DNA of 64,000 nt, from assembly GCF_011045215.1 (NCBI RefSeq), contig NZ_CP049201.1, one strand, 5' to 3'. Shown in pieces: positions 41,248-60,917 of the stretch. Position 1 is the stretch's first letter. The number at the start of each line of letters is the position of its first letter. The stretch comes from Escherichia coli. Lineage in GTDB: Bacteria; Pseudomonadota; Gammaproteobacteria; Enterobacterales; Enterobacteriaceae. A program made the translations under genes and the position numbers. Below the pieces are notes generated by a model. It was not told the DNA's origin. It saw only the letters and a list, made by a program, of their open reading frames with translations, and ran no database searches.

Positions 41248-41275
41248 ATGCTCTGTATAAGGATTATCCAATTCT

Positions 41276-41313
41276 AAAAAAAAGCCCGGACGACTGTTCG
41301 GGCTTGTCTTTTT
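41276..41313. terminator. Bidirectional intrinsic terminator shared by ydbK and micC
   Basis: A-run / GCCCG...CGGGC stem / T-run; serves convergent transcripts. Confidence 0.75.
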
Positions 41314-41385
41314 ATATGTTGGAAAATCAGTGGCAATGCAATGGCCCAACAGAAAATAAAATCTGTGACAATAAAGGCATATAAC
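41277..41385 (-). ncRNA. micC: MicC sRNA (Hfq-dependent repressor of ompC)
   Basis: Minus-strand sequence GTTATATGCCTTTATTGTCACAGATTTTATTTTCTGTTGGGCCATTGC...CCGGGCTTTTTTT matches recalled MicC; lies between ydbK and ompN as in K-12. Confidence 0.85.
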
Positions 41386-41612
41386 CCGCGCAGAATAACG
41401 TATAGAAAATTAAAAGTATAATTTTTATTTTGTATGTATTATCTTCGATACATTCACCAGACTTATTATCATTTCAGAGGAATTATTTGATTAAGGTTTT
41501 ACTTAAGGCGTAACAAATGATATTTATCGGCTAACTGAACTTCTCCTTTAGGATGTTTTCACTCCCCGAAATGGGGATCAAAGGCAAATAAAATAACTAA
41601 AGGATTTATTCA

Positions 41613-56473: not shown

Positions 56474-58447
56474 TTACCCCGGTATTTGTTGCGTTCCGGC
56501 GAGTTGTGCCAGTATGTCGGAACCCGGCGATTGTCGCACCTGAAGCTCAATTATTGCGCGGGCATTTTTGCCAGCACCCTGAAGGTTATCTCTGGCATTT
56601 CTTAGCTGATTCATAATACCAGGGTGTTGATCCAAAGCTCCCTGTATCTGAGGCAATAATTTAATTAAATATTTTACAGTCTCCATTCTCAAACTTAGAT
56701 TTCCATCTCTATCAATACGACCTCCGTTATATGCCGTAAGCATTTTTGCCACATCGCCTTTATAACGCCGGTTCAGATCATTTAAAAAGCGGCCAGCCGC
56801 AAGAGTGGATTTATTTGGGTCATAAACATCATCACCCACCAGACCATACTGTTTTGCGGTGCTATCCCAGAATTGCCACAACCCCTTAGCGAATCTACCT
56901 TTTTCATCTGGAGTTCCTCTTGCCAGAGGATTCCACGAAGATTCAACCTCCGCGATAGCTGACATCATATTTTTAGGAAGTCGATAAGTATTATTGGCTT
57001 GCTCTACAAAGTTCTGAATATTTCTCTTTAAATCATTAGGCATACGGTAATTTTTATATACATCATCCTGTTTATAAAACTCACCCGTATACTGATTTGT
57101 CATCGGGTTTGCTCCCGGCAACGCACCACCGAGATATTTATTCCCAAATGCCGCAAGAACTGGATCTGCCTGTTCAGCACCAACTCCGGTTCCGGGGAGA
57201 TATTTATCTTCCCCACCGATCCATTTGATAGCTGACCATATTGCTTTTGCAATCCGGCTCACCGCCAGAGAAAAATCGTCAAGATCATTTTTAAATTGTT
57301 CGCTATTCAGCCACTTACCAAGTTTCTCCAGCCCTTCGCCAGCCTCAGTGAGAATTTTCTGAAAATTTCCACCATTCAGAAAACCTTCAATATTGGATGT
57401 CAGCCCATCAGATGCACCTGTGATTAGTGGGTTATATCTGGCGAGAGCTGCATACCAGGAATTTGATATTCTGTTTCCATTTACCATCAGGTTACTCACC
57501 GTATCCTGATAACCTGACTGCATAGCTGGCGTGAGGTAAGCACCGAGCAACCTGGTATTTGATGCAAATTTCTCGTTCAGTTGGGGGATCTTGTCCAGAT
57601 TCGCTTCCACCTGGTTAGTTGTCGCGACATCAACAAATCCAAGCCCTTGTCCGTTGAGAATCCCCTGAGTAAGTCCTGAACCTTTATATTGCTTAACGAG
57701 AGATGCAAGCGCGCTCATAAGTTTGGGCAGATTCTTTGCTGCACCATCTCGAGGATCAATTCCAAGACTGACCAGACCAGCATAGTTTGGATCATTCGGA
57801 TTTTTCTGTGCGTTCGCCAGATGCTGAACCAGTTCTTCTGTGCCAGAAAAATATGGCGAATAGGTGGCACGTGCGGCCTGCATCTGTGCGGTTTCCATAC
57901 CCAGCCCCTGAGCCACGCTGTATTGCGCTGCAACCTTGCTCGCCATATATCCGTACCCGAAAGCACCGACCGAACCAAGCGCCGCAATTTTGCTCCCCCA
58001 GGATACAGTCGTTTTAAACAGCGTTTTCAGTCGTGAATTGGTCGTTTTAAGCGTTGAATTGATCTGCTTGTAAGTTTTCAGCGTCCCCTGAGCGTTTTTA
58101 CCCAGACTACTGAGATACTTATCAAACATCGTTTCGCCGCGACCTTTATAGTTGCTCACCAGCGAATCAGGTGTTTTTCCGCTACCGACAAAGCTCCCTT
58201 TTTCATCCCTTAAACGTCCATCGGTGGGCGCAGGTGAAGATGGTTTCCTGGGAGCCTGATTGGCTTCTCCGCCCGAGGTTGCCTGCTGCGTGCCACCTCC
58301 TAGACCTGTATTTGAAGGTATTTTAAGCGGCGTCCCCGCAGGGCCAATCATCAGCCCATTGCGATACTTTTCAAATATCGCCTCAAGTCGCTTAAGGTGT
58401 TCTTCATTAACGTCCAGTGTCAGAACTGGCATCTGATTACCTGACAT
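56474..58447 (-). CDS. Tail tape measure protein with lytic transglycosylase-like domain
   Basis: 657 aa, Gly/Ala-rich; SLT-like motif AIAEVESSWNPLA...GLWQFWDSTA; follows frameshift chaperone. Confidence 0.75.
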   Translation of the reverse strand: MSGNQMPVLTLDVNEEHLKRLEAIFEKYRNGLMIGPAGTPLKIPSNTGLGGGTQQATSGGEANQAPRKPSSPAPTDGRLRDEKGSFVGSGKTPDSLVSNYKGRGETMFDKYLSSLGKNAQGTLKTYKQINSTLKTTNSRLKTLFKTTVSWGSKIAALGSVGAFGYGYMASKVAAQYSVAQGLGMETAQMQAARATYSPYFSGTEELVQHLANAQKNPNDPNYAGLVSLGIDPRDGAAKNLPKLMSALASLVKQYKGSGLTQGILNGQGLGFVDVATTNQVEANLDKIPQLNEKFASNTRLLGAYLTPAMQSGYQDTVSNLMVNGNRISNSWYAALARYNPLITGASDGLTSNIEGFLNGGNFQKILTEAGEGLEKLGKWLNSEQFKNDLDDFSLAVSRIAKAIWSAIKWIGGEDKYLPGTGVGAEQADPVLAAFGNKYLGGALPGANPMTNQYTGEFYKQDDVYKNYRMPNDLKRNIQNFVEQANNTYRLPKNMMSAIAEVESSWNPLARGTPDEKGRFAKGLWQFWDSTAKQYGLVGDDVYDPNKSTLAAGRFLNDLNRRYKGDVAKMLTAYNGGRIDRDGNLSLRMETVKYLIKLLPQIQGALDQHPGIMNQLRNARDNLQGAGKNARAIIELQVRQSPGSDILAQLAGTQQIPG

Positions 58448-59128
58448 TCAATACCCCTCCCGGCGTCGTGCATTTACGCAGCTCACGAAACTGAGCTGCT
58501 GTTTTTACATTCAGACCGGAATTTGCCCAGATGTCGCTGAATCCGTCTCCGGCTGAGTAGTCGAGGATGTCGCTGATAACGTGCTCGCCGTCGCGCCAGA
58601 ACTGGCGACAGGCTTCAATGTCGGCAATGAAGCAATCCATTCCGTAAGACTCAAGGATGAAGTGCGACTGTTCCACATTCCACTGACTACCAGCATCATC
58701 TGTTCCGTCTGCTCCGGTGTGTTTATCGACGAGACGCATGTAAAAAAAACGAGTTCACCTGCCACATCATCAAATTCAACGATGCCGCGCTCTAGCGCCA
58801 TATCAAGCGGGATCGTGTCGTAGCCTTTCCCTTCGACTGGGTAAACCAGATTCGCAAGACGAATGATTTCATTCACGAGCGTATTGCGAACGCCCTTTTC
58901 GCCATCCCAGATATTCATATCTGAGGAGATCCGTTCCAGCATAAGGCAGGCGATACGCGGCCCCGAAACGACGCCAAGACCTTCTGAAAAAATGGCAGAA
59001 AAGGTTTTACTCAGAATAAAGAAATGCTCTTTAAACACCTCTTTGCTGATCGGCGTGGCATGGATCCAGCCGTTCCCCTTTTCTGTCCGGACAGGAATAA
59101 TCAGATTCAAATTTCGCGCGATTTTCAT
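58437..59128 (-). CDS. Tail assembly chaperone, 0-frame product 59128..58511 and -1 frameshift fusion extending to 58437
   Basis: Slippery T-tract (minus 58749-58742) in overlap of two frames; second frame ends 8 nt inside TMP start; classic chaperone arrangement between tube and TMP. Confidence 0.65.
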
Positions 59129-59568
59129 ACCAGATCCCACATTTCAGAGTTGATGTAATACGTACCGGTAATGGTGATGGCTACACCAGGCTCGCCCCCG
59201 GCGAAGGTCATATCCTGCACGTTGGTGATCGCCGTGTTATAGATATCGAAGTCACCGAATACCGTGCTGTCGCTATACACTTTTGCGTCGCCGATCGTGG
59301 CGTTCTTTTCCCATTGAGCCTTGAATTGTTTCCCCAGCGCCTGGCTACGCAGCAGATGAACACGCGCCTGTAAAATCATGTATGGCTGCGGCGACTGCAC
59401 GGCTCCCGTCATGGCGGGTAAAAACTCCGTGATATTGCCCTGAAAGGACAATTCGACGCCTTCTTTTGCCAGAAATGAGGCGGACACATTCAGTTCGGAA
59501 TGAGAGGTGAATTTAACGCTGGCGCGAACCCGGTTAAGGGTGCCAACGGGGATCATTGGATTAGGCAC
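59125..59568 (-). CDS. Tail tube protein (by position/size)
   Basis: 147 aa between sheath-sized gene and chaperone; ATGA overlap with chaperone start. Confidence 0.55.
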   Translation of the reverse strand: MPNPMIPVGTLNRVRASVKFTSHSELNVSASFLAKEGVELSFQGNITEFLPAMTGAVQSPQPYMILQARVHLLRSQALGKQFKAQWEKNATIGDAKVYSDSTVFGDFDIYNTAITNVQDMTFAGGEPGVAITITGTYYINSEMWDLV

Positions 59569-59579
59569 GGTTCAGTCCC

Positions 59580-60917
59580 TCACGAAAGCTGCATTGTCAC
59601 ATTGATGTTAAAAATGATTTCGACAAATCCGCGCATCGGCGTATAGGAGGCCGAAAGGCCCGCATAACGCCCGATACCGTAATCATTCGGATTCGTGTTG
59701 ATATACTGGCGGAAAGGCACTGCATCTACGACAGGCTGGCCGTTGACCAGGCCGTAAGATACGCCCGTATTGAACACCGCCTGTGCGACCTGCTGCAGAC
59801 GGTCGATCCCGTCCTGGTTGTAGTAAAGCGGGTTAATTGGGTTATTGCAGCCGTTGATCACCGCGTTGGCGAGCTGCATATCGACGTTAATCTGCACCCA
59901 ATCCACGGAATACCAGTACGTCATATCGTTACCGTCACTGGTAACGCCTTTCACCAGGATCGTGTTGGAGATTCCACCCTCAGCACCCGTTTCGATGTAG
60001 TTAATATTCTGCTTCGTCATCGTGGCCAGAATGGAATTTTTGCCCTTGTGGGCGTTTACCGCCTGTAAATAGCGAAATGCCATCGGCGGCACCTTGTTGA
60101 TTTCTGAAGGTGATGCGGAAACATAGTTCCACATTACGGCTGCTGCCGCGTTTGTCGCCGGGTACGTATCATCCGCCGTTGCAATAACCGACTTAATACC
60201 GGCATAAGGCGAAACGTAATTCGTGTCGTCCGGCGTTTTCGTCAGCACGAAGAAATACTGCATCGCTTCGTTGGCGGTGTGGAGTTTTGCCAGACTGATA
60301 AACTCTGCGTCACCATCCCACGGCTGCGGCACCAGATACGCATAAAAACGCAGGAGCGGATCTTCCATATAAGCTTTCAGTGCAGCGATTTCCTTACTGA
60401 CTCCGCCTTTCTGTACTCCCAACTCCAGCAGGTAAATCCCCACTGAATTTCCCTGGGCAAAAAACGTGTTTACTGCCGTCACCAGATTTTCACTGCCAGC
60501 AATGGAAAACTGACCCAGTGTCACTGGCGAACCGGAAAGCTGAGAATCAGCTATTGTCCAGGTCAGTGTTTTTTCATCCGCGACGGTAGCAGTATATTCG
60601 CCGTTCCACGCGTCGGGAGAGCAACCGGAAACGACAATCTTTACCTCAGAACTGTTTTCGCGCCGGATATTACTCCCTTCCGGAAGCGTCATCGTAACAG
60701 TGACGTTTGTCGCAGATTTTCCTGCGGCTGCTGCCGACAGTGCTGCAATCGGATTTTTAACCAGATCGTTGATATCCTGATTACGGGTGAGTAATACGGG
60801 TTTCCCAGGCTCATGAGTCGTGGAGCCAAACGAGAGAACCGCGGACATCTGCTGCAAATTCGAGGGAATGGCCCCGATGGTCTGGGACACATTCACCGTG
60901 ACGATATTAAATCCCAT
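59580..60917 (-). CDS. Tail sheath protein (by position/size)
   Basis: 445 aa immediately upstream of tube. Confidence 0.55.
   Translation of the reverse strand: MGFNIVTVNVSQTIGAIPSNLQQMSAVLSFGSTTHEPGKPVLLTRNQDINDLVKNPIAALSAAAAGKSATNVTVTMTLPEGSNIRRENSSEVKIVVSGCSPDAWNGEYTATVADEKTLTWTIADSQLSGSPVTLGQFSIAGSENLVTAVNTFFAQGNSVGIYLLELGVQKGGVSKEIAALKAYMEDPLLRFYAYLVPQPWDGDAEFISLAKLHTANEAMQYFFVLTKTPDDTNYVSPYAGIKSVIATADDTYPATNAAAAVMWNYVSASPSEINKVPPMAFRYLQAVNAHKGKNSILATMTKQNINYIETGAEGGISNTILVKGVTSDGNDMTYWYSVDWVQINVDMQLANAVINGCNNPINPLYYNQDGIDRLQQVAQAVFNTGVSYGLVNGQPVVDAVPFRQYINTNPNDYGIGRYAGLSASYTPMRGFVEIIFNINVTMQLS

What the first reader, a model, noticed from the sequence alone, without database searches (positions are those of the whole stretch)
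58437..59140. Programmed -1 frameshift tail-assembly chaperone on a T-tract
Between tube and tape measure genes, the 0-frame ORF (59128-58511) and an overlapping -1 frame ORF (to 58437) share a run of eight T on the coding strand (58749-58742), giving a T-TTT-TTT slippery heptamer; the -1 frame has a stop just upstream of the slip site, and its end overlaps the tape-measure start. This is the conserved chaperone/chaperone-fusion arrangement of tailed phages and supports that the cluster is a bona fide tail module. The 0-frame product has an unusual Ser/Thr-rich tail.
Basis: partly seen in the sequence, partly recalled or inferred. Interest (0 to 1): 0.45.

Follow-up and report, generated by a model that had tools for sequence, protein, structure and literature searches.

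The report
Frameshifted phage tail assembly chaperone
An E. coli prophage gene between the tail tube and tape-measure genes almost certainly makes two proteins from one start by a ribosome slipping back one base on a run of T's; this is the well-known tailed-phage chaperone trick, here in an unannotated protein family and with an unusually long stretch read in both frames.

Summary
A 205-codon ORF (59128-58511, minus strand) carries T8 at 58749-58742, giving an in-phase T_TTT_TTT heptamer. The -1 frame runs from there to 58437, 11 nt past the tape-measure ATG.

It is not a homopolymer error. Of 71 close relatives, 68 have the same T8. Of 42 distant relatives (30-57% protein identity), 38 keep the in-phase heptamer, and the wobble base of the preceding codon stays T across Val, Ile, Thr, Ala and Cys. 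All relatives keep a -1 ORF of about 100 codons encoding a conserved domain. Fourteen of the 42 have no start codon for that domain, so it can only be made as a fusion.

Substitution patterns and AlphaFold models show both frames are coding across a 231-nt overlap. Each frame's folded segment lies over the other's disordered segment. No downstream RNA structure is present, as in lambda and P2. Neither product matches any Pfam, NCBIfam or PDB chaperone, so the chaperone role rests on gene order and architecture.

This is a new, unannotated member of a known kind, of modest interest. The unusual features are the slip site 77 codons before the stop and a conserved Ser/Thr-rich tail.

The parts
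58511..59128 (-). 0-frame ORF ('G' form): 205 aa, 22.3 kDa. Predicted folded for residues 1-170, with a disordered Ser/Thr-rich tail at 171-205.
   Evidence: ORF list and sequence. phrog_11810, E 6e-84, function unknown. pN/pS 0.20 upstream of the slip. AF2 pLDDT 89.7. 636 clusters at 50% identity.
58742..58749 (-). T8 run. The slippery heptamer T_TTT_TTT occupies 58748-58742, with 0-frame codons GTT TTT TTT.
   Evidence: Conserved in 68/71 close loci and in phase in 38/42 distant loci.
58437..58742 (-). -1 frame extension ('T' part): 101 codons plus TAA, read from the re-read last T (TAC at 58742-58740). It comprises a linker and then a helical domain.
   Evidence: phrog_14324, E 5e-62. pN/pS 0.40 and 0.33 in the -1 frame. 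Conserved core ELYG..F.AD.D..R..WRDG...EGF...FRQR. AF2 pLDDT about 90 for residues 152-220.
58437..59128 (-). Predicted frameshift fusion ('GT' form): 230 aa, 25.7 kDa. It joins residues 1-129 from frame 0 to 101 residues from frame -1, with junction ...VFF|YMRL...
   Evidence: Contiguous single-ORF homologues of the whole fusion exist: P0139, P0140, P0143, P0144.
58511..58741 (-). Dual-coding overlap: 231 nt (76 sense codons plus the stop in frame 0) read in both frames.
   Evidence: Third-position diversity collapses from entropy 1.10 to 0.39-0.58. The frame-specific signal switches from frame 0 (proximal) to frame -1 (distal). Indels in the overlap are multiples of three.
59125..59568 (-). 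Upstream gene, presumed tail tube protein (147 aa).
   Evidence: Lies directly after the sheath gene. phrog_6566, function unknown. No Pfam, PDB or NCBIfam match. Identity inferred from gene order only.
59580..60917 (-). Tail sheath gene (445 aa).
   Evidence: phrog_205 'tail sheath', E 2e-53. Weak DUF3383 match.
56474..58447 (-). Tape-measure-position gene (657 aa) with a C-terminal lytic transglycosylase domain. GGAGG at 58460-58456 serves its ATG at 58447.
   Evidence: Pfam SLT, E 1e-20, residues 481-578. phrog_7694. Sequence read directly.

Best explanation
[quoted passage not shown] The prophage resembles Rac-SA53, and the window is 100% identical to strain C5 over the 801 nt compared.

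All ribosomes start at ATG 59128. Most read straight through to 58511 and make a 205-aa protein. That protein has a compact domain (residues 1-170) and a disordered Ser/Thr-rich tail ending in a conserved C-terminal motif.

A minority slip back one base while the two tRNA-Phe occupy TTT TTT in T_TTT_TTT (58748-58742). They then read TAC ATG CGT... in the -1 frame to 58437. The result is a 230-aa protein that keeps residues 1-129 and replaces the rest with a linker and a roughly 70-residue helical domain.

By analogy with lambda G/GT and P2 E/E+E', the shared N-terminal part would coat the tape-measure protein. The -1-encoded domain would recruit tube subunits. Slip efficiency would fix the ratio of the two proteins, and neither would end up in the virion.

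Shown here: the anatomy, its conservation, coding in both frames, the lack of an independent start, and the lack of a stimulatory RNA structure.

Inferred: that the shift is ribosomal, its efficiency, and the chaperone function.
For: 1. Geometry is verified.
2. The slip site is conserved. T8 is identical in 12/12 and 68/71 close copies. One variant, L066, has T_TTT_TTC, which is still X_XXY_YYZ.
3. In 42 unique distant loci the codons at the site are GTT/ATT/ACT/GCT/TGT TTT TTT in 38. Both Phe codons are always TTT. The preceding wobble base is T whatever the amino acid. So the exact in-phase heptamer is conserved, and T7 is enough.
4. The -1 ORF of 95-122 codons is present in all relatives. 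It ends at or within a few nt of the next gene's start.
5. Selection: pN/pS in the -1 frame is 0.40 in the distal overlap and 0.33 beyond the 0-frame stop. Non-coding frames upstream give 1.7-2.0.
6. The T part cannot be an independent gene. ATG at codon 2 is present in only 5/42 relatives, and 14/42 have no ATG/GTG/TTG before the conserved core.
7. Rare homologues encode N+T as one ORF with the same ...FFY... junction.
8. AF2 folds the fusion at pLDDT 88.4 and pTM 0.84, as two domains joined by a disordered linker at 138-150.
9. Synteny is sheath, tube, this gene, SLT-carrying tape measure, then baseplate hub.
10. No downstream structure is needed in lambda or P2 either, and P2 also slips on a T run, TTTTTTG (PMC3091744). 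U_UUU_UUU is a weak slip site in E. coli (PMC5009743), which fits a low-abundance fusion.
Against: - No protein or RNA data exist, so the fusion product has not been seen.
- There is no sequence or fold similarity to any known chaperone family. Pfam, NCBIfam and PDB sequence searches found nothing. Foldseek against PDB gave a best E of 0.48. BFVD hits to named chaperones have E >= 0.29.
- The slip site is 231 nt from the 0-frame stop. Annotated chaperone frameshifts average 26-36 nt (PMC10885494).
- A homopolymer is also a substrate for RNA-polymerase slippage, which would give an identical protein.
- A few relatives carry T9, or a T6 run with a one-base register change. In these the fusion is the 0 frame.
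- The tube assignment rests on gene order alone.
Confidence: 0.75

Rival explanations
1. Transcriptional slippage. RNA polymerase occasionally inserts one extra U while copying the T8 run. Those mRNAs then encode the same 230-aa fusion in a single frame, and the ribosome never shifts.
For: The site is a pure homopolymer of 8 in the window and in most close relatives. Rare genomic T9 variants encode the fusion directly while keeping the other tail ORF open, which shows the run length is labile. No ribosome-stalling structure lies downstream. The protein product would be identical, so the sequence alone cannot fully separate the two mechanisms.
Against: What is conserved is the in-phase heptamer, not the run length. 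Nineteen of 42 distant lineages have exactly T7, two have T6, and L066 has T7C. Productive bacterial RNA-polymerase slippage is usually reported for runs of about 9 or more (my own knowledge, not tested here). If run length were the selected feature, T9 to T11 should be common, yet T9 is seen in only about 3 of roughly 115 loci.
Confidence: 0.15
2. Two separate genes. The -1 ORF is translated independently from its own ATG at 58739 as a 100-aa protein, as some gene callers and phrog_14324 treat it.
For: An ATG sits two codons after the run in the E. coli group. A few databases hold 97-aa 'proteins' starting there, such as P0121 from Yersinia similis.
Against: That ATG is not conserved; codon 2 is CTG, TGT, GGT, GCT and others in 37/42 distant relatives. 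Fourteen of 42 have no start codon before the conserved core. No Shine-Dalgarno sequence sits at a proper distance, since the upstream bases are the T run. The first 20 or so -1 residues are a variable linker. Single-ORF homologues join N and T.
Confidence: 0.04
3. Artefact or decay. The true gene is a single ORF with T9 or T7, and T8 is a sequencing error or an inactivating mutation in a dead prophage.
For: Homopolymers are error-prone. L041, L083 and L084 carry T9 and read as one ORF.
Against: T8 or T7 in the split configuration is found in more than 95% of about 115 independent loci. These include complete RefSeq genomes and cultured phages: Rac-SA53, vB_Kpn_Chronis and PdC23. No full fused ORF exists among close relatives in a database of 5.8 billion clusters. 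The 0-frame tail is itself conserved and partly folded, which a frameshift error would not produce.
Confidence: 0.02

Closest known systems
Phage lambda G/GT tail assembly chaperones (Levin 1993; Xu, Hendrix and Duda 2004, 2013, 2014, as summarised in PMC5009743)
   Same: Both have two products from one start made by a -1 shift at an X_XXY_YYZ heptamer. The gene lies between the tail tube and tape-measure genes. The -1 ORF has no start of its own and ends at the tape-measure gene. No downstream stimulatory structure is present. The arrangement is conserved while the sequences diverge.
   Different: Lambda slips on G_GGA_AAG a few codons before the G stop, so GT is essentially G plus T. Here the slip is on T_TTT_TTT, 77 codons before the stop, so the fusion lacks the last 76 residues of the short form, about 40 of them folded. 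There is no detectable sequence or fold similarity. The tail here is contractile. Function and product ratio are untested.
Phage P2 E / E+E' (Christie et al. 2002, via PMC3091744)
   Same: Both belong to contractile-tailed phages. Both slip by -1 on a T run (TTTTTTG in P2) with no downstream hairpin. In both, the gene lies immediately upstream of the tape-measure gene.
   Different: P2 E is 91 aa and E+E' is 142 aa, with only a short overlap. There is no sequence similarity and no Pfam GpE match. The last base of the heptamer is T here rather than G.
Annotated tail-assembly-chaperone frameshifts of actinobacteriophages (SEA-PHAGES set used to train PRFect, PMC10885494)
   Same: The same recoding class and the same genomic position.
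   Different: The mean distance from slip site to 0-frame stop is 26 nt there, and 36 nt in the Xu set. Here it is 231 nt, and 159-261 nt across this family.

Membership tests
Frameshifted tail assembly chaperone pair (lambda G/GT type, Xu et al. 2004) | Two overlapping ORFs located between the major tail (tube) gene and the tape-measure gene | tested here: met
   The order is sheath (phrog_205), a 147-aa gene, this gene, then a 657-aa SLT-carrying gene and the baseplate hub. The same order holds in relatives. The tube identity is positional only.
Frameshifted tail assembly chaperone pair (lambda G/GT type, Xu et al. 2004) | A slippery heptamer X_XXY_YYZ, in phase with the upstream ORF, inside the region where both frames are open | tested here: met
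   T_TTT_TTT at 58748-58742 is the only such heptamer in the overlap. It is conserved in 68/71 close and 38/42 distant loci.
Frameshifted tail assembly chaperone pair (lambda G/GT type, Xu et al. 2004) | The downstream ORF has no initiation signal of its own and is expressed only as an extension | tested here: met
   The ATG is not conserved (5/42). Fourteen of 42 have no start codon before the conserved core.
Frameshifted tail assembly chaperone pair (lambda G/GT type, Xu et al. 2004) | The arrangement is conserved among relatives even where sequence has diverged | tested here: met
   The family has 636 clusters at 50% identity.
Frameshifted tail assembly chaperone pair (lambda G/GT type, Xu et al. 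2004) | [quoted passage not shown] | tested here: not met
   The slip is 77 codons (231 nt) before the stop, with a family range of 53-87 codons. Published means are 26-36 nt (PMC10885494).
Frameshifted tail assembly chaperone pair (lambda G/GT type, Xu et al. 2004) | Both proteins are made at a fixed ratio of a few per cent fusion, are required for tail assembly and are absent from virions. The shared part binds the tape measure, and the extension binds the tube protein. | not testable with these tools
   This needs protein detection, genetics and binding assays.
Known chaperone sequence or fold families (Pfam Phage_TAC_*, Phage_P2_GpE; solved structures) | Significant profile or structural similarity | tested here: not met
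   [not shown]
Transcriptional-slippage recoding sites | A homopolymer long enough for RNA-polymerase realignment, with the run length rather than the codon phase being what is conserved | tested here: inconclusive
   The run is T8 here, but T7 in 19 and T6 in 2 of the 42 distant loci. The heptamer phase and the wobble T are the conserved features. RNA was not examined.

The most novel reading that the evidence does not exclude
The pair may not be nested (short form plus extension). It may instead be two isoforms with alternative, separately functional C-terminal modules, encoded in a family-wide dual-coding overlap of 160-260 nt.

The short form would end in a folded sub-domain followed by a Ser/Thr-rich tether carrying a conserved S-[VIL]-P-x C-terminal motif. 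The long form would swap all of this for a linker and the T domain. Each frame's folded segment lies over the other's disordered segment.

In addition, the labile T run (T8 against rare T9) could let DNA-level or transcriptional slippage, and not only the ribosome, set or flip the isoform ratio.
Probability: 0.3. Interest if true: 0.5.

Novelty: new member of a known kind. Interest (0 to 1): 0.3.

Why it matters
The finding confirms that this cluster is a genuine contractile-tail module. It also assigns a role to two 'unknown function' families: phrog_11810 and phrog_14324. These families cover at least 636 clusters at 50% identity. They occur in about 2% of complete E. coli genomes and in cultured Klebsiella, Pantoea and Shewanella phages.

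None of the records examined annotates the frameshift, so the 230-aa product is missing from all of them.

The family is also a clean natural example of long dual coding in which order and disorder alternate between frames. It is an outlier that current frameshift predictors, trained on slip sites close to the stop, would probably miss.

It does not change what is understood about how tail chaperones work.

Tried and rejected
- Downstream stimulatory RNA. The 121-nt fold is less stable than shuffles (z = +2.09). A 14-sequence consensus fold gives -3.9 kcal/mol with no covariation. Rejected.
- Upstream Shine-Dalgarno-like stimulator. AGGTGA lies 5 nt before the run in the window, but it becomes GGCGA or is absent in relatives. 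It is not conserved. Rejected.
- Other slip sites. No other in-frame X_XXY_YYZ heptamer lies in the overlap.
- +1 or -2 shift. The +1 frame closes after 9 codons.
- Rfam. Nothing in the region.
- Literature. A search for Rac-SA53, Chronis and PdC23 found no report of this frameshift.
- Locus scan with the 80-sequence alignment. It was too diverse to search with, so a 9-sequence alignment was used instead.
- Selection on the distal Ser/Thr tail. The pN/pS test could not separate selection on the tail from hitch-hiking on the -1 frame (0.89 in the tail against 0.90 in a non-coding control). Evidence for the tail's function comes instead from family-wide conservation of its length class, stop position and C-terminal motif.
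Full report
**Observation**

On the minus strand a 205-codon ORF starts at ATG 59128. This ATG overlaps the stop of the preceding 147-aa gene as ATGA. The ORF ends at 58511.

Codons 127-129 are GTT TTT TTT. This gives a run of eight T at 58749-58742 and, in phase, the heptamer T_TTT_TTT at 58748-58742.

The -1 frame has a TGA 3 nt upstream of the run and is then open for 101 codons, to TAA 58439-58437. The next gene's ATG is at 58447, preceded by GGAGG. The +1 frame closes after 9 codons.

A T8 run alone is not remarkable: the window has two against about eight expected from shuffles. The other run is the terminator of the MicC sRNA.

**Context**

Over the 801 nt compared, the window is 100% identical to a prophage of E. 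coli strain C5. The region is 98.7% identical to phage Rac-SA53, and relatives occur in 91 of 5,426 complete E. coli genomes.

Upstream lie a tail sheath gene (phrog_205, E 2e-53) and a 147-aa gene in the tube position. Downstream lie a 657-aa protein with a C-terminal SLT transglycosylase domain, in the tape-measure position, and a baseplate hub (phrog_196).

The two ORFs match phrog_11810 and phrog_14324, both listed as 'unknown function'. RefSeq and GenBank annotate only the 0-frame ORF, as hypothetical.

**Not an error: the slip site is conserved**

- All 12 copies fetched from E. coli genomes and phages (82-100% DNA identity) have exactly T8. The same 80-codon 0-frame continuation (counted from GTT to the stop) and a 102-105-codon -1 continuation follow it.
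- Of 71 IMG/VR relatives (67-100% identity in the N-terminal domain), 68 have T8. One has T_TTT_TTC, which is still a canonical heptamer. Two have T9.
- In 42 unique distant relatives (0-frame proteins 30-57% identical), the codons at this site are GTT, ATT, ACT, GCT or TGT followed by TTT TTT in 38 cases.

So both Phe codons are always TTT. The wobble base of the preceding codon is T whether that codon specifies Val, Ile, Thr, Ala or Cys. The conserved object is therefore the in-phase heptamer. T7 is enough, and 19 lineages have exactly that.

A protein search with the -1 part found only 15 clusters and no full fused ORF among close relatives. The 0-frame protein has hundreds of clusters of 205 aa. 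Indels seen in the overlap are -5 and +3 codons.

**Both frames are coding**

Upstream of the slip, frame 0 has pN/pS 0.20 while the other two frames give 1.7-2.0. Third-position entropy there is 1.10.

| Segment | Frame 0 pN/pS | Frame -1 pN/pS | Frame +1 pN/pS |
|---|---|---|---|
| Upstream of slip | 0.20 | 1.96 | 1.71 |
| First 40 overlap codons | 0.65 | 0.79 | 1.43 |
| Last 36 overlap codons | 0.89 | 0.40 | 1.11 |
| Beyond the 0-frame stop | 0.90 | 0.33 | 2.71 |

The -1 product has a strongly conserved core in all relatives: ELYG[IV]RxF[LF]AD[IV]DRxRE[FY]WRDG...EGF...EFRQR.

The 0-frame continuation is also conserved across the family. Its consensus is LW..Q.TSL..TE...SLPTST, then a Ser/Thr-rich linker with 32% S+T against 11% in the N-terminal 120 residues. 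In 56 of 80 diverse members the penultimate residue is Pro, within a C-terminal S-[VIL]-P-x consensus.

The 0-frame stop sits at the same position in 24 haplotypes, as TGA, TAA or TAG.

**Structure predictions agree with the selection data**

The 205-aa form folds with pLDDT 95-98 through residue 170. This includes a post-slip helix, strand and helix at 138-167. It is disordered from 171 to 205.

The 230-aa fusion folds as N domain 1-137, a disordered linker around 138-150, and a helical domain 152-220, with pLDDT 88.4 and pTM 0.84.

So in the overlap, the folded part of one frame lies over the disordered part of the other.

**The T part is not an independent gene**

The ATG two codons after the run in the E. 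coli group is absent in 37 of 42 distant relatives. Fourteen of the 42 have no ATG, GTG or TTG before the conserved core.

Conversely, a few distant homologues encode N+T as one ORF with the same ...FFY... junction, in the same sheath, tube, X, tape-measure synteny.

The three whose DNA could be read have T9 (L083, L084) or a T6 run with a one-base register change (L085). All three still keep the 'G-tail' ORF open in the +1 frame. I read these as rare run-length mutants or assembly errors at a hot spot. They also show that the fusion is a real protein.

**Mechanism**

No stimulatory structure follows the site. The downstream fold has z = +2.09 against shuffles. The consensus fold is -3.9 kcal/mol with no covariation. 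An SD-like AGGTGA upstream is not conserved.

This matches lambda G/GT and P2 E/E+E', which need only the slippery sequence. P2 also uses a T run, TTTTTTG (PMC3091744). U_UUU_UUU is a comparatively weak shifter in E. coli (PMC5009743), which is consistent with a low-abundance fusion.

Ribosomal -1 slippage is favoured over RNA-polymerase slippage because the phase and heptamer are conserved rather than the run length. The two mechanisms give the same protein, however, and only RNA data can settle the question.

**Comparison with known systems**

The recoding logic and genomic position meet the defining features of the frameshifted tail assembly chaperone pair (Xu et al. 2004, reviewed in PMC5009743). 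Two features do not match.

1. The slip site is 231 nt from the 0-frame stop, and 159-261 nt across the family. Annotated sets average 26-36 nt (PMC10885494). The long form therefore lacks 76 residues of the short form instead of containing nearly all of it.
2. There is no detectable similarity to any chaperone family or solved structure. BFVD gives only weak hits (E >= 0.03), some of them to proteins named tail assembly chaperone.

The chaperone function is therefore an inference from synteny and architecture.

**Verdict**

This is an unannotated but canonical kind of phage recoding in a previously uncharacterised protein family. Its distinctive features are an unusually long, genuinely dual-coding overlap and a conserved Ser/Thr-rich tail. 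Interest is modest.

Noticed in passing
L041:3379-3387; L083:4398-4406; L084 gene offset 385; L085 gene offset 376: Rare relatives carry T9, or a T6 run with a one-base register change. In these the N+T fusion is a single ORF, yet the alternative 'G-tail' reading frame stays open and conserved in the +1 frame. This is either a mutational or assembly hot spot, or a hint that run length can flip which isoform is the default.
   Followed up: partly
window 41268-41388 (minus): MicC sRNA (Rfam RF00121, 125 bits). Its terminator holds the only other T8 run in the window (41276-41283).
   Followed up: yes
L009:1-1018 and L010:1-1018 (E. coli ETEC1749, STEC346): The chaperone gene is directly preceded by the DUF2213 head gene. 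The intervening roughly 6 kb (capsid to tube) present in strain C5 is missing, so these are degraded prophages that keep the chaperone and tape-measure genes.
   Followed up: partly
L002 (PP818812.1): 'Actinobacillus phage vB_Apl-pPE4' is 89.5% identical in DNA to this E. coli prophage across the region, with the same gene order. The stated host looks surprising.
   Followed up: no
window 58511-58525 (C-terminus of the 0-frame product); alignment A2: The 0-frame proteins of the family have Pro at the penultimate position in 56/80, within a C-terminal S-[VIL]-P-x consensus that follows a variable Ser/Thr-rich linker. The stop position is kept with TGA, TAA or TAG. This looks like a tethered C-terminal docking motif.
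   Followed up: partly
[not shown]
   Followed up: no
L168:10778-12214 (E. coli C5, outside the window): RefSeq names the gene in the portal position, directly after the terminase, 'anti-CBASS protein Acb1 family protein'. This is possibly a naming artefact.
   Followed up: no
L166:4131-4207 (Klebsiella phage vB_Kpn_Chronis): The annotated tape-measure start lies 76 nt inside the -1 ORF, so the start is probably called too early. In most relatives the -1 stop abuts or overlaps the tape-measure start, for example as TGATG.
   Followed up: partly
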